Below, piece after piece: positions 1,679 through 35,046 of a stretch of 64,000 bases of DNA. The stretch covers positions 22,249 through 86,248 of the forward strand of contig CASIBD010000001.1 in the NCBI GenBank assembly GCA_949372825.1, given 5' to 3'. The position numbers were made by a program, and so were the translations under genes. The notes beneath the pieces were generated by a model that was not told where the DNA came from, did not search any database, and saw only the letters and a list, made by a program, of their open reading frames with translations. This stretch comes from an uncultured Flavobacteriaceae bacterium. GTDB lineage: Bacteria; Bacteroidota; Bacteroidia; Flavobacteriales; Flavobacteriaceae. How positions within the stretch are numbered: the stretch's first letter is position 1; each line of letters starts with the position of its first letter.

Positions 1679-1705
1679 GAAATGTAATGTTAAAACATTT
1701 ACATA
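1003..1705 (+). repeat. Dispersed duplicate, partner of 28915..29620
   Basis: Same comparison as for 28915..29620. This copy is in-frame and forms the C-terminus of the GH13 protein. Confidence 0.9.
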
Positions 1706-10885: not shown

Positions 10886-10910
10886 AGACAATGTTAAATA
10901 TATTTAAATC

Positions 10911-12094: not shown

Positions 12095-12109
12095 TTTTTA
12101 ATATTATTC

Positions 12110-17966: not shown

Positions 17967-19043
17967 CTATTTTGAATAATAAAATTCTTCAAATTCTTGC
18001 TTGTAGATATTTACAAATTCAAAATTTTCTTTAGTAACAATTTCAATAGGCGAAAAGATATTCTTTTTTGGACTAATATTCCTAAGTAAAAATTCTGACA
18101 TATGGATTATCGATTCGTATCCTTGGTTAAAAGATTTTTGAGAAATTATAAAAGTTATTTTATTATTTTTTAAGCATTCAATATTTTTAGGTGTTGTGTC
18201 GTATCCAATAACTTTGAGGTTACGTTGATTGTTTTTGTTTACTAATTTCGAAATTAATCCAACTCTTCCAGATGGAACAAAAATCCCTTTTATTTTTGAG
18301 TTAGACTTAAGTGTGTAATTTATTTTATCAGAAATTGAATCTTTATTTTTTATAGATTTAATTATTACATTAATAGAAGTGCATTCTACTTGTTCGTCTA
18401 GAAAATACCCGTCAAACCCTTTAATTCTGTCAAGTATGGTTTCATTTTTTAAATGAGATGCGATTCTAACTGTTAGAATTTGTGGATTTTCTCCAAGACA
18501 TGTGTGTAAAAGTTTCGCTGCCAAATATCCACTTTTAAAAGAATCTTGACCTACAAACGAAAGATTGTTAAATCCTTTGAGGTTGATATTCAAAAAAATA
18601 TATGGAATTTTTGTTTTGTCAAGTCTTTTAAGAATATTTTTTGTTTGGTTATTGAAAGCGGGAACTATTATAATTCCATTTGGTTTGTCTTTTAAAAGAT
18701 TTTCAAATGAATCCAAATAATTTTTATAGTCTGTTTGCGAATATGTATGATTAATAACATTAAATCCAAACACTTTAATTTCTGAACTCGCCTTTTTTAC
18801 ACCTAAAAAAGGGGATTCCCAAAACATGTCACTATCGTCGTAAGTTGGCATTAGAGTAGCAATTTTATATTCTTTTGTTTTTGCTAATGCACTTGCAACT
18901 GAATTGATTTTAAAATTATTTTTTTTTATTATATCATTAATAATTTTCTCTCTCTTTTCAGAAACACCTCCTCGGTTATGAATAACTCTATCGACAGTTC
19001 CAGTTGAAACTTTTGCTAATTTCGCAATATCACTTATTGTCAT
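17967..19043 (-). CDS. LacI-family transcriptional regulator
   Basis: N-terminal HTH (TISDIAKLAKVSTGTVDRVIHNRGGVS) followed by a periplasmic-binding-protein-like sugar-binding core. 358 aa. Divergent from the giant surface-protein operon. Confidence 0.9.
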   Translation of the reverse strand: MTISDIAKLAKVSTGTVDRVIHNRGGVSEKREKIINDIIKKNNFKINSVASALAKTKEYKIATLMPTYDDSDMFWESPFLGVKKASSEIKVFGFNVINHTYSQTDYKNYLDSFENLLKDKPNGIIIVPAFNNQTKNILKRLDKTKIPYIFLNINLKGFNNLSFVGQDSFKSGYLAAKLLHTCLGENPQILTVRIASHLKNETILDRIKGFDGYFLDEQVECTSINVIIKSIKNKDSISDKINYTLKSNSKIKGIFVPSGRVGLISKLVNKNNQRNLKVIGYDTTPKNIECLKNNKITFIISQKSFNQGYESIIHMSEFLLRNISPKKNIFSPIEIVTKENFEFVNIYKQEFEEFYYSK

Positions 19044-19387: not shown

Positions 19388-22300
19388 ATGAAAAAACTAT
19401 CTCTTATTCTAACTTTTTTATTCATCTCTACAATTACTTACGGACAAACAACGTTTAATAACGGAGATGGCGATAATAAATGGTCCACTGCAGCCAATTG
19501 GACTAACGGAATTCCTAATGCAGCTAACGCAAAAGCTAAAATTGCAGCTGCTTCTGTAATTGTCGATGGGGATTATACTGTAGGTCAAATTATATTTGTA
19601 AATGCAGCCGCTGGAGGTCAAAAAGTCATAACTTTTACTAATGCAAATAATGGTACTTTAACAATTACTGGAAAAGGAGTATCACAGCCAGTGCAGTTAA
19701 ATAGAAACCCTCAACATGCTATTTTTAATCTTCCAGTTATTTTCGATTCATCGGAAAATAAAACTGAAACTTGGCGTTTTAATAGTGGAAATGAAAAAAT
19801 TACATTTGGTGAAGGTCATAGTTTAACTGTAAATGATGAAATGGTATTCACTGCAAAAACTAATACTTCTTCAATTATTTTTAATGGAACAAACACAGGA
19901 GTTGGAAATTTAAAATTTGGAACAGCATCTAATGTTAAATTCGGTTCAACTTACGACGGTTCTTCCTATTCAGGTACGATGATTGTCGCTGGTGATAACA
20001 CAACAACTGCTAAAGTTACCTTAACTTCAGATGTAGCTGACGCAGGAACCTTTCTTAAATCTGGTGCCTCAATTAGTGTTGTAAAAAATGGGGGGACGAT
20101 CAATGTTAATGGAAAAAACACTTTAAAAGGTGATATATCTCTTACAGCTGCTTTTAAGGTTGCTTTAAATATTAATAAGAATCAATCAGCTATTGGTACT
20201 ATTACCATGGGAAGCGGAACATTAAATTTAGCATTAGCTACAGATGTAACATCAGCTGCTTTTGCAGATAACTCATCAGCAGATTGGGGAACAGGATCAC
20301 TAGTTATTACTGGTGCTGGAGATCAAGAGGTTTCTTTTGGAACAACTGCAAACGGAATAACAGCAGATCAACTTGCTCAAATTACTCTTAACGGATCTAC
20401 ACCACTTATTAATTCCACAGGTAAACTTATTGGATCTTCTATTGCAGTATCCACTTTTAATAATGCAGGTGGAGATAATCTATGGTCAAATGCTGCCAAT
20501 TGGTCAGCAGGAATTCCCAATGATGACACTGCTAAAGTGACCGTTGATTCGGATCTTATTGTTGATAGTAGTGTAACGGTTGGACAAATTAAAATGTCTG
20601 GTGCCACTTCGGATGCTTCAGTAACTATTACAGCTACTAACAGTTCAGTACTTACTATTACTGGTGCTGGTGTAACTCAACCTATTCAAAATAACAAAAA
20701 GGCATCTAGTTTTATTTTCAATCTTCCAGTTGTTTTTGATTCTGATGGTGAAACGGAAACTTTAAAACTTAATAGTGGAGGAGATCAACAAATCACATTT
20801 TCAAGTTCTTTAACTTTAAATGATCCTCTTACAGTAACTGGTGTAAATAAACTTCATGATTTAAATTTAAATGGATCTTTACTGGGTGCAGGTAATTTAA
20901 TATTAGGAGCTAAGGCACAGGCTAATTTTGGAGCTGACTATGACGGATCTTCACATACTGGTGATATTATTGTTGCTGGAACAGGAACAAATAATGATAA
21001 CTTGATTACTTCGAATGTTTCTGATGATGGTACTTTACTAGCTTCTGGAAATCAAATTGACGTTCAAGGAGCTGGCGCAAAAATTATTATTAACGGAGCA
21101 AATACATTAAAAGGAAATATTGCAGTTGGAGATAGTGATCCAACTTTGACTATAAATAAAAATCAATCGGCTTTAGGAACTATCACAATGGGGACTGGAA
21201 CTTTAAATCTAGCATTAGCTGCAGATGTAACATCAGCTGCTTTTGCAGATAACTCATCAGCGGACTGGGGAACTGGATCACTTGTTATTACAGGTGCTGC
21301 AGATAATGAAGTTTCTTTTGGAACAACTGCAGCCGGAATAACAGCTGCTCAACTTGCTCAAATCACAATGTCTGGAAGTCAAGTGTTAATAAGTGATACA
21401 GGGAAAATCTCTGTAAAGGAAGTTGCAGTATCTACTTTTAATAATGCAGGTGGAGATAATTTGTGGTCTAATGCTTCTAACTGGTCAGCAGGAATTCCCA
21501 ATGTTGACAGCGCTAAGGTGACTGTTGATTCGGATCTTATTGTTGATAGTAGTGTAACGGTTGGACAAATTAAAATGTCTGGTGCCACTTCGGATGCTTC
21601 AGTAACTATTACAGCTACTAACAGTTCAGTACTTACTATTACTGGTGCTGGTGTAACTCAACCTATTCAAAATAATAAAAAGGCTTCTAGTTTTATTTTC
21701 AATCTTCCAGTTGTTTTTGATTCTGAAGGTGGAGCTGAAACTTTAAGACTTAATAGTGGAGGAGATCAACAAATCACATTTTCAAGTTCTTTAACTTTAA
21801 ATGATCCTCTTACAGTTACAGGTGCTAATAAACTTCATGATTTAAATTTAAACGGATCATTACTGGGTGCAGGAAATTTAAAGTTAGGAAGCAAGGTTCA
21901 AGCTAATTTTGGAGCTAGCTACGACGGATCTGCACATACTGGTGATATTATTGTTGCTGGAACAGGAAATAATAATGATAACTTGATTACTTCAAATGTT
22001 TCTGACGATGGTACTTTATTAGCTTCCGGAAATAAAATTGACGTTCAAGGAGCTGGCGCAAAAATCATTATTAACGGCGCAAATACATTAAAAGGAAATA
22101 TCAAAACAGGAAATAACGATCAAACTTTAACTATCAATGCCAATCAATCAACTGTAGAAACCATTACAATGGGAACTGGAACATTAAATCTAGTATTAGC
22201 TGCAGATGTAACATCATTGGCTTTTGCAGAAAACTCATCAGCCGGCTGGGGAACAGGATCACTTACTATTACTGGAGCCGGAGTTAATGAAGTTTCTTTT

Positions 22301-23767
22301 GGAACAACTGCAGCCGGAATAACAGCAGATCAGCTTGCTCAAATCACAATGGATGGATTTTCTGCCACAATTAATTCATCTGGACAGATTAACAGTAATG
22401 TTGCACCAGTAGCAGTTGACGATATACTAACTGTTAATGAAGATGCTACCGTTACATCAAAAGATGTGATAGCTAACGATACTGATGCAGATGCTGATAC
22501 TCTTACTTTGACAGCAGCTACAACTGCTGGAACGGGAACTGTAGCAGTAAACGCAGATGGAGTGTCAGTTGACTACACACCAGCAGCTAATTTCAATGGA
22601 GCTGAGACGATTACCTATACTGTTTCCGACGGTGAAAGAACAGATGCTTCGGGAACTTTAACTGTAACAGTAACACCTGTAAACGATTCACCTGTTTCTG
22701 CAGCTCAATCTGTAACAACTGTTGAAGATATTTCTGTTGAAATTACTTTATCTGGAAGCGATATTGATGGAGACACTTTAACTTATGAAATTGTAACTAA
22801 TTCATTAAATGGTACAGTTACATTATCAGACAATAAAGCGAGTTATTTACCTAATTCTGGATACTTTGGAGCAGATAGTTTTACATATAAAATAAATGAT
22901 GGAACTGAAGATAGTTCTGTCGAAACTATTTCGATTACAGTAACAAGTAACGACTTTGATGAAGATGGAATTTTGAATCAAAATGACGACTGCCCTGACA
23001 CTCCTGAAGGAACAGTAGTTGATTACAAAGGATGTCCAACATTTGTTCTTCCAGAAAACAATAATAAAGTAGAAATCACAAGTGCTACTTGTATAGGATA
23101 CAACGATGGGTCGATTGGATTAAGCGTAGTTGACACATCACATGATTATACTATAACTATAACAGGAAAACCTGATGTTACTATAGCAGGAAATAACGAT
23201 AAAGCTTCAGTTACTGGATTATCTAAAGGTACTTACACAGTATGTTTCAAGGTTGACGGAGAGCCTGAATACGAACAATGTTTTGATGTTCTTATTGAAG
23301 AACCTGATCGTATATCTGCCTACATCGATATAGATGTAGATAACAAAACTAGTAGTTTTCAACTAAGCGGTTCAGATAATTATAATATAGACATAAACGG
23401 TACTGTTTATAATGTTAAGCAAGATAGATTTACTGCTAAACTTCCAACAGGTCTAAATATTATTAAAGTTTACACAGACTTAGATTGTCAAGGAATTATA
23501 GAAAAAGAAGTCTTTATTTCTGAAGAAATTTTGTATTACCCAAATCCAACCATTAACGATGTAAATGTTCATATTTCAGGGATGGATAAAAAAGTAATGA
23601 TAAGTGTATTTAGTGAAAAGGGAGATTTAGTTCTCAGAAAAGAACAGCAAGTTCAAGACCTTTCAAGATTAACCGAAATAGATCTTTCGTTACAAAACAC
23701 CGGAACTTACATTGTTGTAATGGAAGGTAAAACAGTTAGAAAAACCTTTAAAATTATTAAAAAATGA
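19388..23767 (+). CDS. Giant T9SS-secreted surface protein (1459 aa): signal peptide, 3 beta-helix-like repeats of ~330 aa, 2 cadherin-like domains, TSP3-like motif, SprB-like repeat, T9SS C-terminal domain
   Basis: Three units each begin (S)TFNN.GGDN.WS.A.NW..GIPN. VAVDD...NDSP cadherin-like segments. DEDGILNQNDDCPDTPE motif. TSATCIGYNDGSIG motif. C-terminal YYPNPT...KTFKIIKK. Confidence 0.9.
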   Translation: MKKLSLILTFLFISTITYGQTTFNNGDGDNKWSTAANWTNGIPNAANAKAKIAAASVIVDGDYTVGQIIFVNAAAGGQKVITFTNANNGTLTITGKGVSQPVQLNRNPQHAIFNLPVIFDSSENKTETWRFNSGNEKITFGEGHSLTVNDEMVFTAKTNTSSIIFNGTNTGVGNLKFGTASNVKFGSTYDGSSYSGTMIVAGDNTTTAKVTLTSDVADAGTFLKSGASISVVKNGGTINVNGKNTLKGDISLTAAFKVALNINKNQSAIGTITMGSGTLNLALATDVTSAAFADNSSADWGTGSLVITGAGDQEVSFGTTANGITADQLAQITLNGSTPLINSTGKLIGSSIAVSTFNNAGGDNLWSNAANWSAGIPNDDTAKVTVDSDLIVDSSVTVGQIKMSGATSDASVTITATNSSVLTITGAGVTQPIQNNKKASSFIFNLPVVFDSDGETETLKLNSGGDQQITFSSSLTLNDPLTVTGVNKLHDLNLNGSLLGAGNLILGAKAQANFGADYDGSSHTGDIIVAGTGTNNDNLITSNVSDDGTLLASGNQIDVQGAGAKIIINGANTLKGNIAVGDSDPTLTINKNQSALGTITMGTGTLNLALAADVTSAAFADNSSADWGTGSLVITGAADNEVSFGTTAAGITAAQLAQITMSGSQVLISDTGKISVKEVAVSTFNNAGGDNLWSNASNWSAGIPNVDSAKVTVDSDLIVDSSVTVGQIKMSGATSDASVTITATNSSVLTITGAGVTQPIQNNKKASSFIFNLPVVFDSEGGAETLRLNSGGDQQITFSSSLTLNDPLTVTGANKLHDLNLNGSLLGAGNLKLGSKVQANFGASYDGSAHTGDIIVAGTGNNNDNLITSNVSDDGTLLASGNKIDVQGAGAKIIINGANTLKGNIKTGNNDQTLTINANQSTVETITMGTGTLNLVLAADVTSLAFAENSSAGWGTGSLTITGAGVNEVSFGTTAAGITADQLAQITMDGFSATINSSGQINSNVAPVAVDDILTVNEDATVTSKDVIANDTDADADTLTLTAATTAGTGTVAVNADGVSVDYTPAANFNGAETITYTVSDGERTDASGTLTVTVTPVNDSPVSAAQSVTTVEDISVEITLSGSDIDGDTLTYEIVTNSLNGTVTLSDNKASYLPNSGYFGADSFTYKINDGTEDSSVETISITVTSNDFDEDGILNQNDDCPDTPEGTVVDYKGCPTFVLPENNNKVEITSATCIGYNDGSIGLSVVDTSHDYTITITGKPDVTIAGNNDKASVTGLSKGTYTVCFKVDGEPEYEQCFDVLIEEPDRISAYIDIDVDNKTSSFQLSGSDNYNIDINGTVYNVKQDRFTAKLPTGLNIIKVYTDLDCQGIIEKEVFISEEILYYPNPTINDVNVHISGMDKKVMISVFSEKGDLVLRKEQQVQDLSRLTEIDLSLQNTGTYIVVMEGKTVRKTFKIIKK
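19448..22400 (+). repeat. Three tandem coding repeats of ~1 kb (units start ~19448, ~20447, ~21428)
   Basis: Period 981 nt between units 2 and 3. I see no mismatch across ~150 nt (20543-20694 vs 21524-21675). Antisense shadow ORFs 20377..20607 and 21379..21588 share an identical 26-aa start. Unit 1 is more divergent. Confidence 0.9.
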
Positions 23768-24462
23768 TAAAATCATCGAAATACTTTAATTTAACTTTTG
23801 CCCTAATTTTATTAATTGGCTGTACAAGTGAGGATTTAAATATTCCAGGAAAAACAACTTTAATTAGTCCTGAAAATATTCAAATATGCGAAGAAGGCGT
23901 CTCAATTTCAGATACTCAAACTGAAGTTGCTTTTAGTTGGACTAGCTCGCTTTACACTGATTATTATGATTTGAAAATTACAAATCTAAATTCTAATAGT
24001 ATTATCTGGAACTCAAAAAATAAATTTACTAGCGACACAGTAGTCTTAGTCAAAGGTCAACCTTATTCTTGGAGTGTAAATACTAGAAACAGTGAGGTTT
24101 CTGACATAACTAGTAGTGATACCTGGAAATTTTATTTAGGAGGATTAGGGGTGGTTAACTTTGCTCCATATCCTGCAACCTTAAAATCACCTAATAATAG
24201 TTCAACTGTAGAAAGAGATGCAGAAGGTAAAATAACTTTTACTTGGGATGGAAGCGATCCTGATGATGGAGACACTCTAGTTTATACTTTATATGTAGAT
24301 ACAATTGATGGAAAACAAACACCACTGGCCTCACAAACAGGCTTGTCTGTAAAAACCTTAGATGTAGCATTGGTTGAAGGTTCTACTTACTATTGGAGAG
24401 TCAAAACATTTGATGGAAAAAATAATAGCTACTCAGTTGTTCGTTCTTTTAAAACAAAATAG
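23764..24462 (+). CDS. Lipoprotein with two FN3-like domains, translationally coupled to the upstream giant protein
   Basis: Lipobox (LLIGCTSE). ATG overlaps the upstream stop (ATGA). Two beta-sandwich-like halves ending ...PYSWSVNT and ...YYWRVKTFDG.N.SYS.V.SFKT. Paralog of 29594..30337. Confidence 0.8.
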   Translation: MIKSSKYFNLTFALILLIGCTSEDLNIPGKTTLISPENIQICEEGVSISDTQTEVAFSWTSSLYTDYYDLKITNLNSNSIIWNSKNKFTSDTVVLVKGQPYSWSVNTRNSEVSDITSSDTWKFYLGGLGVVNFAPYPATLKSPNNSSTVERDAEGKITFTWDGSDPDDGDTLVYTLYVDTIDGKQTPLASQTGLSVKTLDVALVEGSTYYWRVKTFDGKNNSYSVVRSFKTK

Positions 24463-24515
24463 ATAGAATAATTTATTATTTAAAGTTTAATACATTTACT
24501 TAAAAACTATTTCTC

Positions 24516-27500
24516 ATGAGGTTTAAACTATTCAATTTTATTTTTCTTTTCTTTTTTTTCAATCTTGCTTTTTCAAACGACTTAGCAAATCCTTTTTTAG
24601 CTAATTATTCAATTTCTGTTACGGCTTCAAGTAACACAAATTATACTTTATCTGGAACTGACTTTAACGGAACTGTTTCAGGAAACGATCCAAGTCTTAC
24701 TTTTATTGTAGGCGATCAAATAACATTTAATGTAAATGCTAGTGGACACCCTTTTTATTTAAAAACAGTTGCTGGATCTGGAGATGGCAATCAAATTAGT
24801 GGTGTTACAAATCAAGGGACAACAAATGGTGCAGTAGTATGGACTCCAGCAGCAGCAGGAACTTATTATTACCAATGTGGTCCACACGACAGCAATGGTT
24901 GGAACCATCACTATTATTAAATCAATTTCAGTATCTACTTTTAACAATGCCGGAGGTGATAATCTATGGTCAACTGCTGCTAACTGGTCAGCCGGGATAC
25001 CAAATGTTGATACAGCTAAAGTGATTGTCGATTCTGATCTTACTGTTGATAGTAGTGTAACGGTTGCACAAATTAAAATGTCTAATGCTTCTTCTGACGC
25101 TTCAGTAACTATTACAGCTACTAACAGTTCAGTACTTACTGTTACAGGTGCTGGTGTAACTCAACCTATTCAAAACAATAAAACTGCTTCTAGTTTTATT
25201 TTCGATCTTCCAGTTGTTTTTGATTCTGCTGGTGAAACTGAAACTTTAAGACTTAATAGTGGAGGAGACCAACAAATCACATTTTTAAGTTCTTTGACTT
25301 TAAATGATGAACTAACCGTTTCAGGAAAAAACAAACTTCACGATTTAAATTTAGATGGATCTTTACTTGGTGCGGGGAATTTAAAGTTCGGATCTAAGGT
25401 TCAAGCTAATTTTGGAGCTAGCTACGATGGATCTTCACACACTGGAGATATTATTGTTGCTGGAACAGGAACAGATAATGATAACTTGATTACTTCGAAT
25501 GTTTCTGACGATGGTACCTTACTAGCTTCTGGAAATCAAATTGACGTTCAAGGAGCTGGCGCGAAAATTATCGTTAACGGAGCAAATACATTAAATGGAA
25601 ATATTACAATTGGTGACAACGATCCAACATTAACTGTTAATGCCAATCAATCGGCTATTGGTACAATTACAATGGGAGCTGGAACTTTAAATCTAGCATT
25701 AGCTGCAGACGTCACGTCAGCTGCTTTTGTAGATAACTCGTCAGCTGACTGGGGAACAGGATCACTTGTTATTACAGGTGCTGCAAACAATGTGGTTTCT
25801 TTTGGAACTGATGCAAACGGTATAACAGCAGCTCAACTTGCTCAAATAACAATTAGTGATGGAGGAGCTGTTATTAATGCTTCAGGTCAAATTTCTGCCG
25901 CTACTTCGTCTGCTTTAGTTACTACATTTAACAATGCAGGTGGAGATAATCTATGGTCAAATTCTGCCAATTGGTCAAACGGAATTCCAACTGATAATAA
26001 TTCCAAGGTGACTGTTGATGCGGATCTTATTGTTGATAGTAGTGTAACGGTTGGACAAATTAAAAATGCTAGTGCTACATCAGCTGATTCAGTAACTATT
26101 ACAGCTACTAACAGTTCAGTGCTTACTGTTACAGGTGCTGGTGTAACTCAACCTATTCAAAATAATAAAAAGTCATCTAGTCTTATTTTTAATCTTCCAG
26201 TTGTTTTTGATTCTGAAGGTGAAACTGAAGCTATGAAAATCAACAGTGGAGGAGACGAAAGTTCTGGTTTTGCAAACATCACATTTTCAAGTTCTCTGAC
26301 TTTAAATGATGAACTTACTGTTTCTGGGGAAAATAAAAACCATGATTTAAATTTAAATGGATCTTTACTAGGTGCAGGTAATTTAAAATTTGGAGCAAAT
26401 ACTCAGGCTAACTTTGGAACTAGCTACGATGGATCTTCACATACTGGAGATGTTATCGCTTCAGGTGTGGTTACTGTTGTTTCAAATGTTTCTGATGATG
26501 GTACCTTACTAGCTTCTGGAAATCAAATTGACGTTCAAGCAAATGGTGCGACTATTACCATTAATGGAGCAAATACACTAAAAGGAAATATTAAAATTGG
26601 TGATTATAAACCAACCTTGACTGTTAATGCCAATCAATCAGCTATTGGTACTATTACTATGGGATCTGGAACTTTAAATCTAACATTAGCTACAGATGTA
26701 ACATCAGCTGCTTTTGCAGATAACTCATCAGCGGATTGGGGAACAGGATTACTAGTTATTGTCGGTGCTGGAAATAATGAGGTTTCTTTTGGAACAGATG
26801 AAAATGGTATAACAGCAGCTCAACTTTCTCAAATCACTCTTAACGGATCTACACCAGATATTAATTCATCCGGTCAAATTTCTACTTCTTCAATTGCTAT
26901 ATCAACCTTTAATAATGCAGGTGGAGATAATCTATGGTCAAATGCTGCCAATTGGTCAGCAGGAATTCCGAATATTGATACTGCCAATGTAACTGTTGAG
27001 ACGGATCTTATTGTTGATAGTAGTGTAACGATTGCACAAATTAAAAACAAAGGAACAACATCGGATGCTTCAGTAACTATTACAGCTATTAATGATGCAA
27101 TACTTACTGTTACAGGTGCTGGTGTAACTCAACCTATTCAAAATAATAAAAAGTCATCTAGTCTTATTTTTAATCTTCCAGTTGTTTTTGATTCTGATGG
27201 TGGAACGGAAACTATAAAAATCAATGTAGGTGGAGACGAAAGTTCTGGTTTTGCAAACATTACATTTTCAAGTTCTCTTACTTTAAATGATGAACTAACT
27301 GTTTCAGGATCAAATCTAAATCATGATTTAAATTTAAATGGATCTTTACTGGGTGCAGGGAATTTAAAGTTCGGATCTAAGGCTCAGGCTAATTTTGGAG
27401 CTAGCTACGATGGATCTTCACACACTGGAGATGTTATTGCTGCAGGTGCGGCAGAAAATAGTCTAGTTACTATTGTTTCAAATGTTTCTGATGATGGTAC

Positions 27501-29597
27501 TTTACTAGCTTCTGGAAATTCAATTGACGTTCAAGCAACTGGAGTTATTATCAATGTTAACGGAGCAAATACACTAAAAGGAAATATTAAAATTGGTGAT
27601 TATAAATCAACCTTGACTGTTAATGCAAATCAGTCGGCTGTAGGAACTATCACTATGGGAGCTGGAACTTTAACTTTAACTGTTCCTGAATCTTTAACTT
27701 CATTGGCTTTTGCAGACAACTCATCAGCGGATTGGGGAACAGGATCACTAGTTATTACTGGCGCTGGAAATAATGAGATTTCTTTTGGGACAACTGCAGA
27801 TGGTGTAACAGCAACTCAACTTGCTCAAATTACTTTTAACGGATCCACTCCAGTTATTAATGCTTCAGGTCAAATATCTACTTCTTCAATTTCAGTATCT
27901 ACTTTTAATAATGACGGAGGTGATAATCTATGGTCAAATGCTTCCAACTGGTCAGCAGGAATTCCCAATGTTGACACTGCTAAGGTGACTGTCGATTCGG
28001 ATCTTATTGTTGATAGTAGTGTAACGGTTGGACAAATTAAAATATCTAATGCTACTTCGGATGCTTCAGTAACTATTACAGCTATTAATGATGCAATACT
28101 TACTGTTACAGGTGCTGGTGTAACTCAGCCTATTCAAAACAATAAATCTGCTTCTAGTTTTATTTTCAATCTTCCAGTTGTTTTTGATTCTGAAGGTGGA
28201 ACTGAAACTTTAAGACTTAATAGTGGAGGAGACCAACAAACCACATTTTTAAGCTCTCTGACTTTAAATGATGAACTTACCGTTTCAGGTGTAAATAAAC
28301 TTCATGATTTAAATTTAAATGGATCTTTACTGGGAGCAGGTAATTTAAAGTTTGGAAACAAGGTTCAAGCTAATTTTGGAGCTGACTATGACGGATCTTC
28401 ACATACTGGTAAAATTATTGTTGCTGGAACAGGAACAAATAATGATAACTTGATTACTTCCAATGTTTCTGATGATGGTACTTTACTAGCTTCTGGAAAT
28501 CAAATTGACGTTCAAGGAGCTGGCGCAAAAATCATTATTAACGGAGCAAATACATTAAAAGGAAATATTGCAGTTGGAGATAGTGATCCAACTTTGACTA
28601 TAAATAAAAATCAATCGGCTTTAGGAACTATCACAATGGGGACTGGAACTTTAAATCTAGCATTAGCTGCAGATGTAACATCTGTTGCTTTTGCAGATAA
28701 CTCATCAGCGGACTGGGGAACTGGAAAAGTTGTTATTACAGGTGCTGCAGATAATGAAGTTTCTTTTGGAACAACTGCAGCCGGAATAACAGCTGCTCAA
28801 CTTGCCCAAATTACTCTTGACGGATCTACTTCATATATTAATTCAAGTGGTCAAATCTCTACCTCTTCTTTATTTAATTTACCACCTACTAATAACAAGG
28901 TATCGGTAACTAGTGCGAGTTGTATTGGTACTACTGACGGATCGATTGGACTTAGTATTGAGGATGCTAGTTATAATTATACAGTTACTGTTACAGGCAA
29001 GACGATCCAATTACTTTAGGCGGCGAGACTAAGACGGCTTCAGTGACAGGTCTTGGAACTGGTACTTACACGGTTTGTTTTAAAGTAGACGGACAAGACA
29101 CTTACGAGCAGTGCTTTGAAGTTAACATAGGCGAGCCTAAAGCGTTAAGCGTGTTTATCGATGTGGATAACGACAACAGAACTACTAGCATACAATTAAG
29201 CGGTTCTTCTAGTTACAACGTAGAAGTAAACGGACAGCGTTACAACGTTAAAGGAGATAGGTTTACAACTAATCTTCCTTCGGGACTTAGTATTATTAAG
29301 ATAAGCACAGACTTAGACTGTCAAGGTATAATAGAAAGAGAGATCTTTATCTCAGAAGACATATTGTATTACCCTAATCCAACACCAGGAGACGTTAACG
29401 TGTATGTTAATGGAGAAGACAGTAAAGTAACAATGAGCGTGTTTAGTTCAAAAGGAGATCTAATCTTTACAAAAGAACAAGAGATACAAACGACAAGAAA
29501 AACAGATTTAGACCTGGGTGGTGTTCCAGCAGGTACTTACTTAGTTACTCTTGAAGGACCAACAGTTAGAAAAACATTTAAAATAGTAAAACGATGA
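24516..29597 (+). pseudogene. Second giant T9SS surface protein: signal peptide, cupredoxin domain, 4 beta-helix-like repeats of ~330 aa, SprB-like repeat, T9SS C-terminal domain; frame interrupted twice
   Basis: Three track ORFs (24516..24920, 24877..29019, 29043..29597) are colinear with the architecture of 19388..23767. Break 1 splits the Cu-site loop (YYYQCGPH | TAMVGTITII). Break 2 is a single missing C (GGCCAAGACG at ~1076 vs GGCAAGACG at ~28996). Confidence 0.85.
24932..28872 (+). repeat. Four tandem coding repeats of ~1 kb (units start ~24932, ~25918, ~26899, ~27895)
   Basis: Each unit opens with STFNN.GGDNLWS...NWS.GIP. Unit 4 carries a block (28369-28805) nearly identical to 20921-21357 in the other gene, with about a dozen mismatches by eye. 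Confidence 0.9.
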
Positions 29598-29620
29598 GAA
29601 ACCAGATATTAAAACACTTT
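28915..29620 (+). repeat. Dispersed ~700-bp duplicate of 1003..1705 (SprB-like + T9SS CTD cassette, plus the start of the downstream gene)
   Basis: Side-by-side reading shows under 10 substitutions plus one 1-nt indel over ~700 nt. Similarity decays on both flanks. Confidence 0.9.
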
Positions 29621-30337
29621 AGTTTTCTGTTTACATTAATCCTTATAAGCTGCGGCGGCGGCGGAGGAGACGACACCGGCGGTGGCGGCGGAGGCGGACC
29701 AGTAGATCCACCACCAACACCCCCAGGCAAGTCTACTTTAGTAGCCCCGGCCAACAACAAGACTTGTGAGACTGGAACTAGTGTGTCGGATACCCAGAGC
29801 ACAGTAGCATTTAGTTGGAACGCTTCGGCCAGTACCAACACTTATGATGTTAGTATAACTAACTTAAACACAAGTACAGCTACAAACAAAAACGGAGTGT
29901 CTTCTACAAGCACTACAGCAACACTTGATAAAGGAGTTCCATATTCATGGAAAGTAACTTCAAAGAACACTCAGACTACAACTACAACAGCTAGTGATAC
30001 ATGGAAGTTTTACTTAGCAGGTGATGGTGTGGTAAACTACGCACCGTTCCCAGCAGACCTTAAAACTCCAGCATCTGGATCAACTGTCACTCTTAGTGAT
30101 GGAAAGGCTACGTTTACTTGGGAAGGTACTGATCCTGACTCAGGCGATACGCTTAGTTATACGGTTTATGTAGACACTACAGACGGTAAACAAACACCAG
30201 CCTCGGCTTTAACAAACCTGTCAGCTCAAACTGCTGATGTGGAACTGGAAGCGGCTACAACGTATTACTGGAGAGTGAAGACATCAGACGGAACTAACGC
30301 TAGTTACTCCATTGTTTACTCGTTTAAGACACAGTAG
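29594..30337 (+). CDS. Lipoprotein with Gly/Pro-rich linker and two FN3-like domains (paralog of 23764..24462), atypically GC-rich
   Basis: Lipobox (LILISCGG). ATGA overlap with the upstream stop. Same domain pattern as the paralog (C.TG.S.SDTQ..VAFSW...; YYWRVKTSDG.N.SYS.V.SFKT). About 50% GC in the 60-nt samples I counted, against ~30% for the paralog. Confidence 0.8.
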   Translation: MRNQILKHFSFLFTLILISCGGGGGDDTGGGGGGGPVDPPPTPPGKSTLVAPANNKTCETGTSVSDTQSTVAFSWNASASTNTYDVSITNLNTSTATNKNGVSSTSTTATLDKGVPYSWKVTSKNTQTTTTTASDTWKFYLAGDGVVNYAPFPADLKTPASGSTVTLSDGKATFTWEGTDPDSGDTLSYTVYVDTTDGKQTPASALTNLSAQTADVELEAATTYYWRVKTSDGTNASYSIVYSFKTQ

Positions 30338-30368: not shown

Positions 30369-31826
30369 TTGAACAGATATATATTATTAATTGCCATTTT
30401 ATTTAGTTTAAATCTGTTGTCTCAGGAAACTGAAAAAAAACCAAACTTTCTTTTTGTTCTTGTAGATGATCAGCCTTATGATGCTGTAGGATTTTCAAAC
30501 AGATATCCGTTTTTAAAGACTCCGAATATTGATAAGTTAGCAAAAGAGGGCGTAAATGTAAAAAATTTCTTTGTTACTCAATCTATATGTTCACCATCAA
30601 GGGCTAGTTTTTTAACAGGAACCTACCCTCATATACATGGCGTAAATCAAAATAATAAATATGTTGATCCCGATTGGACAAACTATGCGCCTTTCTCAAC
30701 TCATTTGCAAAAATCTGGATACGAAACAGCTCATATAGGTAAAATTCATATGGCTTGGAAAAGAGGTAAAGAACATATAAGACCAGGATTTGATTATTGG
30801 TTTAGTTTTATTGGTCAAGGACAATATTTTAATCCTAAGGTTAATGATAATGGTAGAGAAACTCAGATAGAAGGCTATATGACAGATATTTTAACTGATA
30901 AAACTGTTGACTGGTTAGTAAATAAACGTGATCCTGATAAACCTTTCAGTCTAAACCTTTGGCATAAAGCAGTTCATGAAAAACATCTTCCAGCACCAAG
31001 ACATGAAGATCTGTTCCAAGACGATCCATTGCCTGAACCTCCATTTGATACGCATAAGGAAACATTTAAGGGTAAACCAGAGTGGTTAAGAAGAAAAACA
31101 TATGGATTTAAATGGAATGAAAATGATAAGATTCCTGAAGAACTACCTGAAATAACCTGGCCGATTAACAAACATAAGTATATGCAGCTTCTTAGAAGTT
31201 TGATTGCAGTTGATGAATCACTTGGAAAAGTAATAAAAACTTTAGAAGAAATAGGAGAACTTGAAAATACAGTAATAATTTACAGTAGTGATAATGGGTA
31301 TTTTATGGGTGAACATACTTTTATTGATAAAAGATTAGCATATGAAAATTCTATGAGAGTCCCTATGATAATTAGATATCCTAAATTAATCTCAAAAAGC
31401 TCTGTTGTTGATGAACAATGTCTAAATATTGATATAGCCCCTACAATTTTAGATTTAGCTGGAGTAAATAAACCTAGCTATATGCAAGGTGAGTCAATGC
31501 TAAAATTAATAAGTGGAAAAAAAGATAAATCTTGGAGAAAAAGTATGCTTTTCGAATATTATGTTGATGATGCTTGGCCATATGCAGGACCTAATCAAGT
31601 TGCAGTTAGGACTAATGAATATAAATTAATTGATAATTTCTTAGAAGATGATATCGATGAATTATATGATTTAAAAAATGATCCAGGTGAAATGACAAAT
31701 TTAATAAATGATTCCAGCTATGATTTAGTTGAAAAGGAATTAAGAGAGGAATCTATTAAATTACAAAAACAATATAATTATAATCCAGATAGAGATTGGT
31801 GGTTAAGAACACAAATCAAAAAGTAA
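30369..31826 (+). CDS. Formylglycine-dependent sulfatase (S1 family)
   Basis: Signal peptide. LVDDQ metal-site motif. CSPSRASFLTG (C-x-P-x-R) formylglycine motif. TTG start per track. Confidence 0.9.
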   Translation: MNRYILLIAILFSLNLLSQETEKKPNFLFVLVDDQPYDAVGFSNRYPFLKTPNIDKLAKEGVNVKNFFVTQSICSPSRASFLTGTYPHIHGVNQNNKYVDPDWTNYAPFSTHLQKSGYETAHIGKIHMAWKRGKEHIRPGFDYWFSFIGQGQYFNPKVNDNGRETQIEGYMTDILTDKTVDWLVNKRDPDKPFSLNLWHKAVHEKHLPAPRHEDLFQDDPLPEPPFDTHKETFKGKPEWLRRKTYGFKWNENDKIPEELPEITWPINKHKYMQLLRSLIAVDESLGKVIKTLEEIGELENTVIIYSSDNGYFMGEHTFIDKRLAYENSMRVPMIIRYPKLISKSSVVDEQCLNIDIAPTILDLAGVNKPSYMQGESMLKLISGKKDKSWRKSMLFEYYVDDAWPYAGPNQVAVRTNEYKLIDNFLEDDIDELYDLKNDPGEMTNLINDSSYDLVEKELREESIKLQKQYNYNPDRDWWLRTQIKK

Positions 31827-31828
31827 TC

Positions 31829-34800
31829 ATGAAAAATATTTCATTAATTTTCTTAATATTTTTTTCAACATCAATTTTTTCACAAGACCTTTTATTAAAA
31901 GGAACTGTTTTTGAAAAAGATTCAGACATTACTCTTCCTGGAGCAACAATTCAAGTAATCGGAAATGATACTGGTGTAGTTACAGATTTTGATGGAAATT
32001 TTGAGATTATTTTAACTATTGGTGATAAAATCAAAGTTTCATATGTTGGAAAGGAAACAACCGAGTTAACTATAATATCCTCCCCGGTTTCTATTTATAT
32101 GGAATCTAACACTAACGAACTAGATGAAGTGACTGTAAGTGTTGGTTATTTTGATATTAGTAAAAAAGATTTATCTGGATCTATAATTCAAATAACATCC
32201 GATCAACTTGAAAAAAATAGAAATGGATCTTTAGAGAGTGTTTTACAAGGACAAGTATCTGGTTTAGTTGTTACAGAAAGTTCCGAGCCTGGCGGCGGCT
32301 CAGGGGTATCAATAAGAGGAACTAATTCTATTTTAGGAGGAACCCAGCCTTTATATGTTCTAGATGGTATACCTGTTTCTCCGTTATCTGATGCCCAAGG
32401 AATGGGTGGAAGTGGTGGACAACAAAGTTCTCTTAGTTTTATAAATCCAAATGACATTGAGAAGATTGAAGTTTTAAAAGATGCTGCTGCTACCTCAATT
32501 TATGGAGCAAGAGGAGCAAATGGGGTTATTTTAATTACCTCTAAAACAGCTAATAATGAAAATGGAAAAGACAAAATATCTTTAAGATATGAAAGTTATG
32601 TAACCTCTGTAAGAAAAAATATTGATGTTTTAGATGGTTCTGGTTTTGAAAGCTATATGAATCAAAGAGTTTTAAATCAAATCTTTCAAGATATTACTGA
32701 TCCGACCAGAAATGGAGGCGCATATGATGGTTCCCAGTTAATAAATGTTGAGAATTTCCCTGAAATATCTGAGTACAATTTTCCATATCCTCAATCTACA
32801 GGGAAAAATACAAATTGGCAAGATGAAACTTATAGGCTATCTCTAAGTAACAAATACAACTTAAATTATAGGGGAGGAGATTTTAAAAGGAATATTTCAA
32901 TAGGACTTGGAATTAATAATCAGGAAGGTGTAATTATTAATTCAAATAATAAAACTATAAATTTTAACATGAATGCTAAGAGAAAAGCATTTAATGATAA
33001 AATTGATGTTTATTCCAAAACATATTTTACTCATAAAAAAGGAAATGCTGCATCAGTTGGTAATGGTGAAATATTTCAGCAAAGAGGTGTTGTTTCTCAA
33101 GCGTTACAATTTCAACCTATTTTTTCGTTACTAGAACCTGGTCAAGATGATGATATCTATTCTACTCTGAACGAAGGTAATGTTGTATCCAACCCTTATA
33201 ATTTAGCTCGATACGTGATGGATATTAAAAAATCTTTTTCTTTTCGACAAACATTGCAAATCGTAGCTAGAATTACACCAAAATTAACTGCTACTTTAAA
33301 AGGATCATATAACTTTCAAAAAAGTAACAGAGATAACTATTATCCTCTAAATACCACAAGAGGAAGAAATACAAATGGTCAAGCATCACAAGCTTTTTTA
33401 GAAAATAGCAAAACATATGCTGAGGTTAATTTCAGATATAGAAATAAGTTTCAAAATCATCGTTTAGACGCTACTGTTGTTGCAACATATGAGAAAAATG
33501 AAATTAGATCTATGTTAAATAAGGCAAGAGGTTTTGGAACAGATGCTACAGCCTTTTATAACTTTGCTTCGGCTGAAGAAATTCTTACTCCAATTTCACA
33601 ATTTAGAGAAGTTGGTTTGTTATCTGCTTTGTTCAGAGTTGGATACAATTATAAAAGAAAATATTTTATAGATGTAAATGCAAGAATTGATGCATCCTCA
33701 AAATTTTCAATAAATAATAAAAGCGCCTTATTTCCATCAGTTGCTTTCTCTTGGTTTGCTTCAAAAGAAGATTTTTTAAAAAAATATGATAATTTAAATG
33801 AGCTTAAATTTAGAATATCATATGGTAAAATTGGAAGTAATCCAATATCGCCATACCAGTCATTGGCTCTTATGACCCCTATTCGTTATAATTTTAATGA
33901 TGAAATAATTACTGGATTTTTTGAATCTAATCTGGCAAATGATGATCTAACTTGGGAAACTACTGATCAATTTAATTTTGGTATTGATTTAGGTTTATTA
34001 GATTCAAAACTAAATTTTATAGTAGATTTATACCATAAAGTAACTAGCGATTTACTACAAAATGTTCAACTACCTCCATCAAACGGATATACAAGTAGAG
34101 TTGACAACTTTGGAGAAGTTGAAAATAAGGGTATCGACTTTAGCATAAATTCAATAATCTCAGAGAATGATAGTTTTAAGTGGAATGTAAATGCTAACTT
34201 AGGTTTAAACAAGAATAATCTTAATAAATTAAACTCAAATTTAGATTTTCAGTTAGGACCTTCAGTTGGTTTTTCACAAGCATATCCTATTCTTTTTAAA
34301 GTTGGCCAACCCTTAGGAATTTATTGGGGTGCTCAAACAAATGGAGTGTATTCTGATTGGGATGAAGCGATTAGTAGTGGAATTTCTGGAGCTGCGCCAG
34401 GTGAAATTAAATATATAAATAATTTTGTTGATGTTGACCAGTCTGGTCAACCTTTAGCTATACAAGAAATTAATTTTGATGATTATGTGAAAATTGGAGA
34501 TCCTAATCCGGATTTTACCTATTCAATTTCAAATAATTTTAACTTTAAAAATTGGGATGCAAGTATTCTTTTTACTGGTCAAAAAGGAGGAGATATATTT
34601 TGGGTTGATTCGTGGCAATTGACTGGTTTACAAAAAACAACTAATGTACTAACTTCCTCATTTGAAGACTCTTGGATGGCGCCACTTACTTATGAAAACG
34701 GTAATTATTTATATGATTCTTCAACTGGTATTTTAAATAATGTAAACAATCCAGGTGCAATGATAGATACTGGAAAAAGAGCAATTTCATCAGATAGAAA

Positions 34801-35041: not shown

Positions 35042-35046
35042 TACTA

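What the first reader, a model, noticed from the sequence alone, without database searches (positions are those of the whole stretch)
19388..30337. Tandem two-gene modules: giant beta-helix-repeat T9SS surface protein plus ATGA-coupled double-FN3 lipoprotein, possibly an undescribed surface system at the head of a sulfatase PUL
Two consecutive modules share one architecture. Gene A (1459 aa, and ~1690 aa if repaired) has a signal peptide and 3 or 4 Cys-free units of ~330 aa, each opening with FNN.GGDN.WS...NW..GIPN. That opening resembles the start of autotransporter-associated beta-strand / parallel beta-helix passenger repeats. Gene A ends with a Cys-containing SprB-like repeat and a T9SS type-A CTD. 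Gene B (232 and 247 aa) is a lipoprotein with two FN3-like domains. Apart from the lipidated Cys it has a single conserved Cys (ICEEG / TCETG). In both modules, and in the vestige at 1675, its ATG overlaps the stop of gene A as ATGA, which argues for strict stoichiometric co-expression. Gene B is not PorP/SprF-like, the known accessory class for SprB-type adhesins. The pairing may therefore be a different anchoring, chaperoning or co-receptor arrangement. The modules sit between a LacI regulator and a sulfatase + SusC/SusD cluster with no obvious intervening terminator, so a role as a very large surface glycan-capturing device for that PUL is plausible.
Basis: partly seen in the sequence, partly recalled or inferred. 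Interest (0 to 1): 0.75.

Follow-up and report, generated by a model that had tools for sequence, protein, structure and literature searches.

The report
Lipoprotein partner for secreted surface proteins
Two giant secreted beta-helix repeat proteins are each followed by a small two-domain lipoprotein gene, and this lipoprotein turns out to accompany a conserved tail found on many unrelated type IX-secreted proteins, so it is probably an undescribed partner that holds them on the cell surface.

Summary
A1 (19388-23767) and A2 (24516-29597, broken by two frameshifts) carry 3 and 4 Cys-free units of 322-334 aa and a T9SS type A CTD. Each is followed, with an ATGA overlap, by a tandem-FN3 lipoprotein (B1, B2).

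The interpretation needs re-centring. B is not tied to the repeat. It is tied to a ~164-aa module with four invariant Cys that lies just before the CTD and has no Pfam match.
- In marine metagenome contigs, 62 of 72 assessable ORFs with this tail are followed at once by B, 59 with the 4-nt overlap.
- Every B gene with readable upstream sequence follows such a tail. This includes five cultured Flavobacteriaceae genera and Chitinophaga.
- The cargo varies widely: GH13, GH5+CBM6, M60/M66/reprolysin-like proteases, CotH, cadherin-like, propellers.
- A repeat unit with a CTD but no tail (Polaribacter) has no B.

The repeat unit is a confidently predicted beta-solenoid of a small unannotated family. 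It recurs in sulfatase-rich PULs.

Best reading, which is inferred: B is a cognate surface anchor or receptor for tail-bearing type A cargo. This would parallel PorP/SprF for type B cargo. I found no description of it in the literature searched.

The parts
19388..23767 (+). Gene A1, 1459 aa. Order of parts: signal peptide, 3 beta-solenoid units, 2 Big_9 domains, a TSP3-like Cys loop, the tail module, type A CTD.
   Evidence: ORF. Pfam and NCBIfam. Sub-coordinates.
19445..22393 (+). Three Cys-free repeat units at 19445-20446, 20447-21427 and 21428-22393. Each is predicted to be one beta-solenoid domain.
   Evidence: 322-334 aa, 53-87% identity. AF2 of unit 2 gives pLDDT 94.1 and pTM 0.91. All 49 PDB matches are beta-helix proteins but none is significant. 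No Pfam match.
22397..23038 (+). Two Big_9 / tandem-95 Ig-like domains (22397-22951) and a TSP3-like Cys loop (22952-23038).
   Evidence: PF17963, E 4.5e-36. (NF012211, and a match to the TSP3-like region of NF053612). Coordinates.
23039..23527 (+). Tail module of A1 just before the CTD: about 164 aa, two beta-rich sub-domains, four invariant Cys.
   Evidence: Alignments. No significant Pfam or PDB sequence match. This is the part that co-occurs with B.
23528..23764 (+). T9SS type A C-terminal sorting domain of A1.
   Evidence: PF18962 at 33.5 bits (cutoff 27) and TIGR04183 at 30.3 bits (cutoff 23).
23764..24462 (+). Gene B1: 232-aa lipoprotein (lipobox LIGC, then T-S-E-D) with two FN3 domains. 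Its ATG overlaps the A1 stop codon (ATGA).
   Evidence: AF2. Foldseek finds 263 PDB matches at E<=1e-3, the best being tandem FN3 pairs. Cys42 is invariant.
24516..29597 (+). Gene A2, about 1693 aa if repaired. Order of parts: signal peptide, cupredoxin-like domain, 4 units (24931-25917, 25918-26898, 26899-27894, 27895-28881), tail module (about 28870-29360), type A CTD (29361-29594). Two frameshifts interrupt it, at 24888 and near 28998.
   Evidence: CTD PF18962 at 43.3 bits. Repaired cupredoxin-like domain: PF00127 at 20.6 bits against a cutoff of 21.2.
29594..30337 (+). Gene B2: 247-aa lipoprotein (lipobox LISC, then a Gly-rich linker containing DD) with two FN3 domains. ATGA overlap with A2.
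74..1700 (+). C-terminal part of a third cargo that ends in an A2-type tail and CTD. Positions 971-1700 are 97.5% identical in DNA to 28891-29619. The first 26 nt of a B2-type gene follow the stop at 1678 and then the similarity ends, so there is no B gene.
60415..64000 (+). Large ORF with PA, BNR and TSP3 matches that runs off the end of the window. It belongs to the same cargo class as a metagenomic protein with PA, TSP3, tail and B (L070), so it is probably a fourth tail-bearing cargo.
   Evidence: Its own tail lies outside the window and was not seen.
30369..36618 (+). Context only: a sulfatase (30369-31826), SusC-like (31796-35041) and SusD-like (35047-36618) genes, 31 nt downstream of B2.
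   Evidence: Gap sequence. No terminator-like site in the gap.
17967..19043 (-). Context only: a LacI-family regulator, divergent from A1.

Best explanation
The region holds two copies of a conserved two-gene cassette.

Gene one is a T9SS type A cargo. Its variable N-terminal 'business end' is, in this window, 3 or 4 tandem non-catalytic beta-solenoid domains of a small family that recurs in sulfatase-rich PULs. They probably form a glycan-binding or adhesive rod. The cargo ends in a conserved ~164-aa tail module with four Cys, followed by the cleavable CTD.

Gene two (B) is translationally coupled to gene one. It is an outer-membrane lipoprotein with two FN3 domains, one invariant free Cys, and in many members an acidic surface-export-like motif after the lipid Cys.

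Proposed mechanism:
1. The cargo is exported by Sec.
2. The T9SS recognises it through the type A CTD and translocates it.
3. The CTD is removed.
4. The tail module that remains binds its cognate B lipoprotein on the cell surface, either non-covalently or through B's lone Cys.
5. The cargo, otherwise soluble, thereby gains a lipid anchor in trans.

Tail-bearing cargo without its own B, such as the presumed amylase at 74-1678, would use a B encoded elsewhere in the genome.

Shown: the cassette, its conservation, the domain folds, and the independence of B from cargo type. Inferred: surface location of B, binding between tail and B, the anchoring role, and the glycan-binding role of the solenoid.
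For: - Tail to B: 62 of 72 assessable tail-bearing ORFs on marine metagenome contigs are followed at once by B, 59 of them with a 4-nt ATGA-type overlap.
- B to tail: every genome or MAG locus with readable upstream sequence has the tail plus a type A CTD before B. This includes Christiangramia (GH13 cargo) and Chitinophaga (TIG cargo).
- Four of four divergent B-family members taken from cultured genera follow a cargo with a full tail match, E 1e-43 to 1e-52. The genera are Arenibacter, Aegicerativicinus, Ulvibacterium and Zhouia.
- The cargo N-terminal parts fall into at least 16 unrelated classes.
- Negative control: a Polaribacter protein with the unit and a CTD but no tail is not followed by B.
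- Tail and B identities co-vary: r=0.90, Mantel p=0.001, n=67. For CTD against B, r=0.72.
- Within this window the repeat units of A1 and A2 are 74-88% identical, apart from the divergent first unit of A1. The two tail types are about 62% identical, measured on the copy at 971-1700 that is 97.5% identical in DNA to A2's own tail, and B1/B2 are 54%. Tail and B have therefore diverged together as two types.
- In Arenibacter, the GH13 of a SusC/SusD/SusE locus is a T9SS cargo with tail and B. In the Bacteroides Sus system the corresponding amylase, SusG, is itself a surface lipoprotein (my own knowledge).
- B is a tandem FN3 protein.
- The lipobox Cys and Cys42 are conserved in 100% of 88 divergent members.
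- B1's C-T-S-E-D fits the minimal lipoprotein export signal, a polar residue followed by two acidic ones (PMC5080379).
- Published precedent for cognate partners exists only for type B CTD cargo, with PorP/SprF (PMC10202324, PMC12618676).
Against: - No physical or expression evidence was available. Everything about the function rests on gene order and sequence.
- Only about half of the divergent B members have an acidic pair within 11 residues of the lipid Cys. In the B2 type the pair sits at +7/+8, not at the position shown to work in Capnocytophaga. Surface exposure is therefore not secure.
- The tail has an even number of Cys (4), which could all pair internally. That would leave B's Cys for some other role.
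- 10 of 72 tail-bearing ORFs have no adjacent B.
- Most sampled loci come from related marine Flavobacteriaceae and are not independent observations.
- Linked genes are expected to co-vary simply because they are inherited together.
Confidence: 0.5

Rival explanations
1. B is a secretion helper rather than an anchor. In this reading it is an outer-membrane lipoprotein facing the periplasm, or a component close to the translocon, that recognises the tail and chaperones or targets these large cargos to the T9SS, or shuttles them after translocation. That would be a role like the one PorP/SprF plays for type B cargo.
For: The same conserved adjacency, translational coupling and co-variation apply. 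Half of the divergent B members lack a clear acidic export motif. Type B cargo needs cognate shuttle proteins, and a region longer than the CTD is needed for their secretion (PMC10202324, PMC12618676).
Against: Type A CTDs are reported to be sufficient for secretion and to use PorV. 14% of tail-bearing cargo genes lack an adjacent B. Long flexible Gly/Pro linkers after the lipid Cys, and the C-x-S/K-(D/E)2 motifs in many members, look like those of surface lipoproteins.
Confidence: 0.25
2. B is an independent SusE/SusF-like surface glycan-binding lipoprotein. It merely shares an operon with secreted carbohydrate-active or adhesive proteins and does not contact them directly.
For: There are weak sub-threshold Pfam similarities to the SusE N-terminal domain (20.6 bits, cutoff 25.2) and to Ig_Rha78A_N. 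Many cassettes lie in or next to PULs.
Against: B follows proteases (M60, M66, reprolysin-like), CotH kinase-like proteins, cadherin-like proteins and propellers, in non-PUL surroundings such as next to TamB, tRNA synthetase or ribosomal protein genes. What stays constant is the tail, not any glycan-related cargo. In the Arenibacter locus a true SusE homologue is present in addition to B. The 4-nt overlap is nearly universal.
Confidence: 0.1
3. One reading: B is a dedicated co-receptor or anchor of the giant beta-helix repeat protein, and together they form a glycan-capturing device for the downstream sulfatase PUL.
For: Both repeat proteins in the window have a B gene. The same arrangement occurs in a close relative (L104). 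The unit family recurs in sulfatase-rich PULs.
Against: Most B genes follow cargo without the repeat unit. The unit occurs without B when the tail is absent. The unit family is tiny, with 70 hits. The B family is large, with more than 1500 hits in one search and 4609 representatives in another.
Confidence: 0.05
4. There is no functional link. The tail, the CTD and B form a recombination-prone 3' cassette that spreads together by gene conversion, and B does something unrelated.
For: The tail moves by recombination. The 3' end of the gene at 74-1678 is 97.5% identical in DNA to the tail of A2. The block starts near the beginning of the tail and ends 26 nt inside B.
Against: The adjacency survives down to 37-41% B identity and across two classes of Bacteroidota. 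The overlapping start and stop are maintained. An invariant Cys and many invariant residues in B show purifying selection.
Confidence: 0.1

Closest known systems
T9SS type B CTD cargo with cognate PorP/SprF-family partners (for example SprB-SprF in Flavobacterium johnsoniae)
   Same: The cargo gene is immediately followed by a gene for a cognate outer-membrane partner. Partners come in several co-diverged types within one genome. Orphan cargos can share a partner (PMC12618676). The partner is proposed to determine surface retention or final localisation (PMC10202324).
   Different: Here the CTD is type A (PF18962/TIGR04183), not type B. The partner is a ~235-aa tandem-FN3 lipoprotein, not a PorP/SprF beta-barrel (no Pfam match). 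The element that tracks the partner is a separate ~164-aa module before the CTD.
Type A CTD cargo attachment in Porphyromonas gingivalis (PorV shuttle, PorU sortase, linkage to anionic LPS)
   Same: The same class of sorting domain is used. The same question arises of how cargo stays on the surface once the CTD is removed.
   Different: In that system no gene-specific partner is encoded next to each cargo. The anchoring proposed here is to a lipoprotein, not to LPS, and it is inferred, not shown.
Sus-like surface lipoproteins (SusE/SusF/SusG) of Bacteroidota PULs
   Same: Small Ig/FN3-like domains on a lipid anchor with a flexible linker and an acidic export motif. Location in or near PULs. 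In Arenibacter the cassette supplies the GH13 of a starch-type locus.
   Different: B does not reach the SusE Pfam threshold (20.6 against 25.2 bits). It follows non-glycan cargo as well. The enzyme itself is not lipidated but secreted by the T9SS.
Parallel beta-helix / beta-solenoid surface proteins (autotransporter passengers such as Ag43 and Hbp; the MpAFP region IV solenoid; the beta-helix domain in PDB entry 7jvi)
   Same: The predicted architecture of each 330-aa unit is a stack of short beta-strands. These proteins are its only structural neighbours. They are large, Cys-free, extracellular repeat proteins.
   Different: No significant structural match (best E 0.6, TM 0.37) and no sequence match to any Pfam beta-helix or PATR family. 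Export is by the T9SS, not by an autotransporter barrel. No acidic, basic or His residue is conserved, so there is no sign of a catalytic site.

Membership tests
T9SS type A cargo (A1, A2, and the ORF at 74-1678) | C-terminal sorting domain that matches PF18962 / TIGR04183 above the curated cutoff | tested here: met
   A1 scores 33.5 bits and the A2 tail piece 43.3 bits (cutoff 27). TIGR04183 scores 30.3 and 40.2 bits (cutoff 23). The ORF at 74-1678 scores 40.9 bits.
T9SS type A cargo | N-terminal Sec signal peptide | tested here: met
   Read directly from the sequence. A1 starts MKKLSLILTFLFISTITYG|Q and A2 starts MRFKLFNFIFLFFFFNLAFS|N. No predictor was run.
T9SS type A cargo | Secretion depends on the T9SS and the CTD is cleaved | not testable with these tools
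   This needs genetics or proteomics.
PorP/SprF-type cargo partner (for B) | Match to the PorP/SprF outer-membrane beta-barrel family | tested here: not met
   No such hit for B1 or B2 at E<=0.1 in Pfam or NCBIfam. B is predicted to be two FN3 sandwiches.
Bacterial lipoprotein (B) | Signal peptide ending in a lipobox with an invariant Cys | tested here: met
   B1 has LLIGC and B2 has LILISC. The lipobox Cys column is conserved in 100% of 88 divergent members.
Surface-exposed Bacteroidota lipoprotein (B) | Lipoprotein export signal: a polar or Lys residue followed by two acidic residues at about +3 to +5 after the Cys (PMC5080379) | tested here: inconclusive
   B1's C-T-S-E-D fits. B2 and its close relatives have DD at +7/+8. 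Among 81 divergent members, 40 have an acidic pair within +2 to +12, most often at +4.
Fibronectin type III fold (B) | Two seven-stranded beta-sandwiches that match solved FN3 tandems | tested here: met
   Foldseek against PDB finds 263 matches at E<=1e-3, the best being FN3 pairs at about 1e-7. The model has pLDDT 67 overall and 83-91 for domain 1. Giant relatives match PF00041. B1 and B2 themselves are below the Pfam cutoffs.
SusE/SusF family (B) | PF14292 above its gathering score | tested here: not met
   20.6 bits against a cutoff of 25.2, over 50 residues only.
Autotransporter-associated beta-strand repeat (PATR) or Pfam beta-helix families (the repeat unit) | Sequence match to PF12951, PF13229 or a related model | tested here: not met
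   No hit at E<=0.1 for the whole proteins or at E<=1 for a single unit. No NCBIfam hit. No PDB sequence hit.
Parallel beta-helix / beta-solenoid fold (the repeat unit) | Structure that superposes on known beta-helices | tested here: inconclusive
   The AF2 model is confident (pLDDT 94.1, pTM 0.91) with about 34 short strands. All 49 PDB matches and many of the BFVD matches are beta-helix proteins. None is significant, though: best E is 0.6 and 0.13, and TM is at most 0.37.
SprB repeat (start of the tail module) | PF13573 above threshold | tested here: not met
   E=4 and 7.6 bits against a cutoff of 28, over about 20 residues.
Polysaccharide utilisation locus (membership of A and B in the downstream PUL) | Adjacent SusC/SusD pair, and co-regulation with it | tested here: inconclusive
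   SusC/SusD and sulfatase genes follow on the same strand after a 31-nt gap with no terminator-like site. The unit family recurs in PULs elsewhere. Transcription was not testable, and B cassettes also occur outside PULs.
Cupredoxin (N-terminal domain of A2) | PF00127 above its cutoff, plus the Cu ligands His...Cys-x2-His-x2-Met | tested here: inconclusive
The amicyanin model gives E 3e-4. The motif C-G-P-H-T-A-M is present only after the extra base at 24888 is removed.

The most novel reading that the evidence does not exclude
[quoted passage not shown] The tail would be a targeting signal that specifies covalent capture of type A cargo by a cognate surface lipoprotein, through a disulfide to B's invariant Cys or through PorU-mediated linkage. 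That would explain how marine Flavobacteriia keep T9SS-secreted glycoside hydrolases, proteases and adhesins on the cell without lipidating them or attaching them to LPS. The distinct tail/B types within one genome would give partner specificity.
Probability: 0.3. Interest if true: 0.85.

Novelty: new variant of a known kind. Interest (0 to 1): 0.7.

Why it matters
How type A T9SS cargo is kept on the cell surface outside Porphyromonas is an open question.

In marine Flavobacteriia, surface retention of secreted enzymes decides whether polysaccharide breakdown products are kept by the cell or shared with neighbours.

A gene-linked lipoprotein partner that recognises a portable tail would offer three things:
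- a simple, testable mechanism for that retention;
- a genomic marker (tail plus B) that predicts which secreted proteins are cell-bound;
- a possible tool for displaying proteins on Bacteroidota.

The work also defines three unannotated families. They are the 330-aa beta-solenoid unit, the 164-aa tail, and the B lipoprotein, which public records currently label 'hypothetical' or 'fibronectin type III domain-containing' protein.

Tried and rejected
- Pfam and NCBIfam scans of the repeat unit and of the tail gave no usable hit, even at permissive thresholds.
- PDB sequence searches with profiles of the unit, the tail and B gave nothing significant.
- Foldseek of the unit model against PDB and BFVD returned beta-helix proteins (all 49 PDB matches, many of the BFVD ones) but none significant. 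No specific structural relative can be named.
- I looked for a conserved third gene downstream of B and found none. The neighbours vary: a small lipoprotein, a ferredoxin, housekeeping genes.
- I considered whether the A2 frameshifts are assembly errors. Neither sits in a long homopolymer. One other possible split gene (10911-12094) could not be confirmed. The question of pseudogene versus sequencing error stays open.
- The sigma-70 promoter scan was at chance level: 51 sites found against 50.4 expected. It does not cover Bacteroidota promoter types in any case.
- Literature searches for a lipoprotein partner of type A cargo found no description. That literature is only partly covered by the library.
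- A complex prediction of tail plus B was not possible.


Full report
**1. Checking the observation**

The ORF map matches the finding.
- A1 is 19388-23767 (1459 aa).
- B1 is 23764-24462 (232 aa).
- B2 is 29594-30337 (247 aa).
- A2 lies between B1 and B2 in three reading-frame pieces: 24516-24920, 24877-29019 and 29043-29597.

Both A/B junctions read ATGA.

A2 is broken by two single-base changes.
- An extra base at 24888 splits a C-G-P-H|T-A-M motif.
- A C is missing near 28998. This is visible against the 97.5% identical copy at 971-1700.

Repaired, A2 would be about 1693 aa.

A1 has three repeat units and A2 has four. They are 322-334 aa long, 53-88% identical to one another, and free of Cys. 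This is far beyond chance.

**2. Domain content**

Pfam and NCBIfam give the following for A1: two Big_9/tandem-95 domains, a TSP3-like loop and a type A T9SS sorting domain. The last piece of A2 also has the type A domain.

The 330-aa units match nothing in Pfam or NCBIfam, even at E<=1 for a single unit.

The N-terminus of A2 is a borderline cupredoxin-like domain, and the first frameshift cuts through its copper-ligand loop.

B1 and B2 have only sub-threshold Ig/FN3-type hits and no PorP/SprF hit.

**3. The repeat unit**

A profile of the seven units finds only 70 proteins. Nearly all are fragments from marine Flavobacteriaceae metagenomes. A few ~430-aa proteins consist of a signal peptide, one unit and a type A CTD, for example in Polaribacter sp. 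M15.

I modelled unit 2 of A1 with a 36-sequence alignment. AlphaFold2 gave pLDDT 94.1 and pTM 0.91, with about 34 short strands and almost no helix.

Foldseek against PDB returned 49 matches, all beta-helix or beta-solenoid proteins. They include the MpAFP solenoid, phage tailspikes, PL6 lyases, Ag43, Hbp and the beta-helix domain of entry 7jvi. None is significant: the best has E 0.6 and TM 0.37. BFVD gave the same picture.

The unit has no specific known relative.

The columns conserved in at least 90% of the family are Gly, Asn, Gln, Ser, Thr, Pro and hydrophobic or aromatic residues. No Asp, Glu, Lys, Arg or His is among them. This argues for a scaffold or binding domain rather than an enzyme. 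That last step is inference.

**4. Gene B**

A profile of B1 and B2 finds more than 1500 proteins at 47-93% identity, all named 'hypothetical', from marine Flavobacteriaceae.

An exhaustive profile search of cluster representatives finds 4609 at E<=1e-3. They are of two kinds. One kind is ~235-aa proteins that match end to end. The other is giant proteins of 2000-5000 aa with 10-41 copies of the same domain, and these reach Pfam fn3.

The B1 model has two beta-sandwiches (pLDDT 67 overall, 83-91 for domain 1). It matches solved tandem FN3 pairs, with 263 PDB hits at E<=1e-3.

In 88 divergent members, the lipobox Cys and one further Cys (Cys42 of B1) are conserved in 100%. Cys42 lies in a P-x-N-x-x-x-C-E-x-G loop.

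B1's C-T-S-E-D fits the minimal Bacteroidota lipoprotein export signal (PMC5080379). About half of the divergent members have an acidic pair near the lipid Cys. The B2 type carries it at +7/+8, inside a Gly-rich linker. Surface exposure is therefore likely but not secure.

**5. What B is linked to**

Genomic contexts of B homologues showed different upstream genes. All of them ended in a type A CTD, and in most the stop codon overlapped B's ATG.

Aligning the last 300 residues of these upstream proteins revealed a conserved ~164-aa module directly before the CTD. It has four invariant Cys and no significant Pfam or PDB sequence match. The 'SprB-like' resemblance amounts to 7.6 bits.

I then searched in the other direction. 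Using the tail as query, I fetched 80 marine metagenome loci.
- Of 72 tail-bearing ORFs with enough downstream sequence, 62 (86%) are followed immediately by B.
- 59 of those 62 have the 4-nt overlap.
- 10 have no adjacent B.

The N-terminal parts of these cargos fall into at least 16 unrelated clusters:
- Big_9/cadherin-like giants
- NHL/FG-GAP and LVIVD propellers
- PA-domain proteins
- M60-like and M66 peptidases
- CotH with LTD
- GH5 with CBM6 and CBM35
- GH13
- ASH/cadherin/TSP3 proteins

**6. Depth of conservation**

The pairing holds in Christiangramia aquimixticola (B 41% identical; GH13 cargo) and in Chitinophaga vietnamensis (37%; TIG-domain cargo; a different class of Bacteroidota).

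I took four divergent B-family members that are found in cultured genera. All four sit right after a type A cargo with a full-length tail match, E 1e-43 to 1e-52:
- Arenibacter lacus: SusC/SusD/SusE, then a GH13 T9SS cargo, then B.
- Aegicerativicinus sediminis: a 2573-aa pectinesterase-like protein.
- Ulvibacterium marinum: a 903-aa protein.
- Zhouia sp.: a reprolysin-like protease.

The converse control also fits. The Polaribacter protein with a unit and a CTD but no tail is followed by another T9SS protein, not by B.

Across 67 distinct pairs, tail identity and B identity correlate at r=0.90 (Mantel p=0.001). CTD against B gives r=0.72. Linked genes should co-vary anyway. What this result adds is that tail and B travel as one unit while the cargo in front of them is exchanged.

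The window shows this directly.
- The units of A1 and A2 are up to 88% identical. The two tail types are about 62% identical, measured on the near-identical copy at 971-1700, and B1/B2 are 54%.
- The gene at 74-1678 carries an A2-type tail. Its 97.5% identity block begins at the start of the tail and ends 26 nt inside a B gene that is otherwise absent.

**7. Context of gene A**

The window is rich in sulfatase genes, at 30369, 36622, 38531, 40166, 41806 and 52540. It has two SusC/SusD pairs and a GH3. A LacI regulator diverges from A1.

No terminator-like hairpin lies in the 53-nt gap between B1 and A2 or in the 31-nt gap between B2 and the sulfatase. That scan is weak evidence.

Members of the unit family sit in comparable loci elsewhere:
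- a close relative with the same two modules followed by sulfatases (L104);
- a MAG where SusC/SusD/GH3 is followed by an A-like gene and B (L105);
- Polaribacter, where SusC/SusD, beta-helix enzymes, the single unit and two sulfatases are contiguous (L112).

This gives moderate support to a role for the solenoid protein in the use of sulfated polysaccharides. It does not support a PUL-specific role for B.

**8. Mechanism**

The most economical reading is a cognate pair. The tail stays on the mature cargo after the CTD is removed, and it is recognised by the co-expressed FN3 lipoprotein. On the cell surface this would tether the cargo through B's lipid.

This would explain several things:
- why enzymes that Sus-type systems need at the surface (the GH13 in Arenibacter, the GH5 in a laminarin-type locus) are T9SS cargos rather than lipoproteins;
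- why the overlap that enforces co-translation is kept;
- why two co-diverged types coexist in one genome;
- why some tail-bearing cargos can do without their own B, as orphan type B cargos share a shuttle protein in F. johnsoniae (PMC12618676).

The invariant lone Cys in B raises the possibility of a disulfide link. The tail's four Cys could, however, all pair internally.

None of this was tested physically. The main rival is a secretion-helper role. The reviews I read describe cognate partners only for type B cargo (PMC10202324). My literature searches found no description of this pairing.

**9. Verdict**

The conserved system is 'tail module + type A CTD + FN3 lipoprotein', and the beta-solenoid repeat protein is only one of many cargos.

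I rate it a new variant of a known kind, namely T9SS cargo with a gene-linked cognate partner. It is of clear interest to the T9SS field and to marine polysaccharide degradation. Confidence in the cassette is high. Confidence in the anchoring mechanism is moderate.

Noticed in passing
window 74-1700: A third T9SS cargo, taken to be amylase/GH13-like, carries an A2-type tail and CTD that are 97.5% identical in DNA to 28891-29619. Only the first 26 nt of a B gene follow it. An SSS-family-like transporter ORF starts at 1739. This looks like a recent recombination or gene-conversion event whose breakpoints lie at the start of the tail and just inside B.
   Followed up: yes
window 24516-24920, frameshift at 24888: A2 begins with a cupredoxin-like domain (His...C-x-P-H-x-x-M). 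Its copper-ligand loop is cut by a one-base insertion. Weak cupredoxin hits also occur inside two other tail-bearing cargos (L002, L007). The role of a blue-copper-like domain on a secreted adhesin-like protein is unexplained.
   Followed up: partly
window 60415-64000: A large ORF with PA, BNR/Asp-box and TSP3 matches runs off the end of the window. It is the same class as a metagenomic cargo that has the tail and B (L070). It is probably a fourth cassette in this genome.
   Followed up: partly
proteins P0191-P0201 and others: The FN3 variant that builds B also forms giant proteins of 2000-5200 aa with up to 41 tandem copies. I did not examine what these are or whether they relate to T9SS cargo.
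   Followed up: no
L107 (Arenibacter lacus) 1-8708: A starch-type locus with SusC, SusD and SusE. Its GH13 amylase is a T9SS type A cargo with the tail, followed by B with a 4-nt overlap. This is a natural test case for the anchoring idea.
   Followed up: partly
L112 (Polaribacter sp. M15) 1-13308: A PUL with SusC/SusD, a GLAA-B-like beta-helix protein, the single-unit T9SS protein, two further NosD/beta-helix proteins (the first of which also has a type A CTD) and two sulfatases. Several different beta-helix proteins cluster in one sulfatase PUL.
   Followed up: no
window 10911-12094: Two overlapping same-strand ORFs (197 and 212 aa, 48-nt overlap) may be one gene split by a frameshift. Only a weak PHP-domain hit was found. 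If it is a real split, that would favour assembly error as the cause of the A2 frameshifts.
   Followed up: partly
window 29594-29700 and B2-type homologues: B2-type proteins carry a Gly-rich linker of about 25 residues (GGGGGDDxxGGGGGGG, then Pro-rich) after the lipid Cys, and B2 has 45% G+C against 31.5% for the window as a whole. B1-type proteins have a short linker. This is a second difference between the two cassette types.
   Followed up: no
L104 (ERZ1699694 contig_323) and L105: In relatives, the A-like genes directly follow a GH3 gene with or without a sulfatase: a SusC/SusD/GH3 block in L105, and GH3 plus sulfatase at the contig start in L104. Gene lengths match the block at window 45379-53925. 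In the window that block lies about 20 kb downstream of the modules, which implies a rearrangement.
   Followed up: partly
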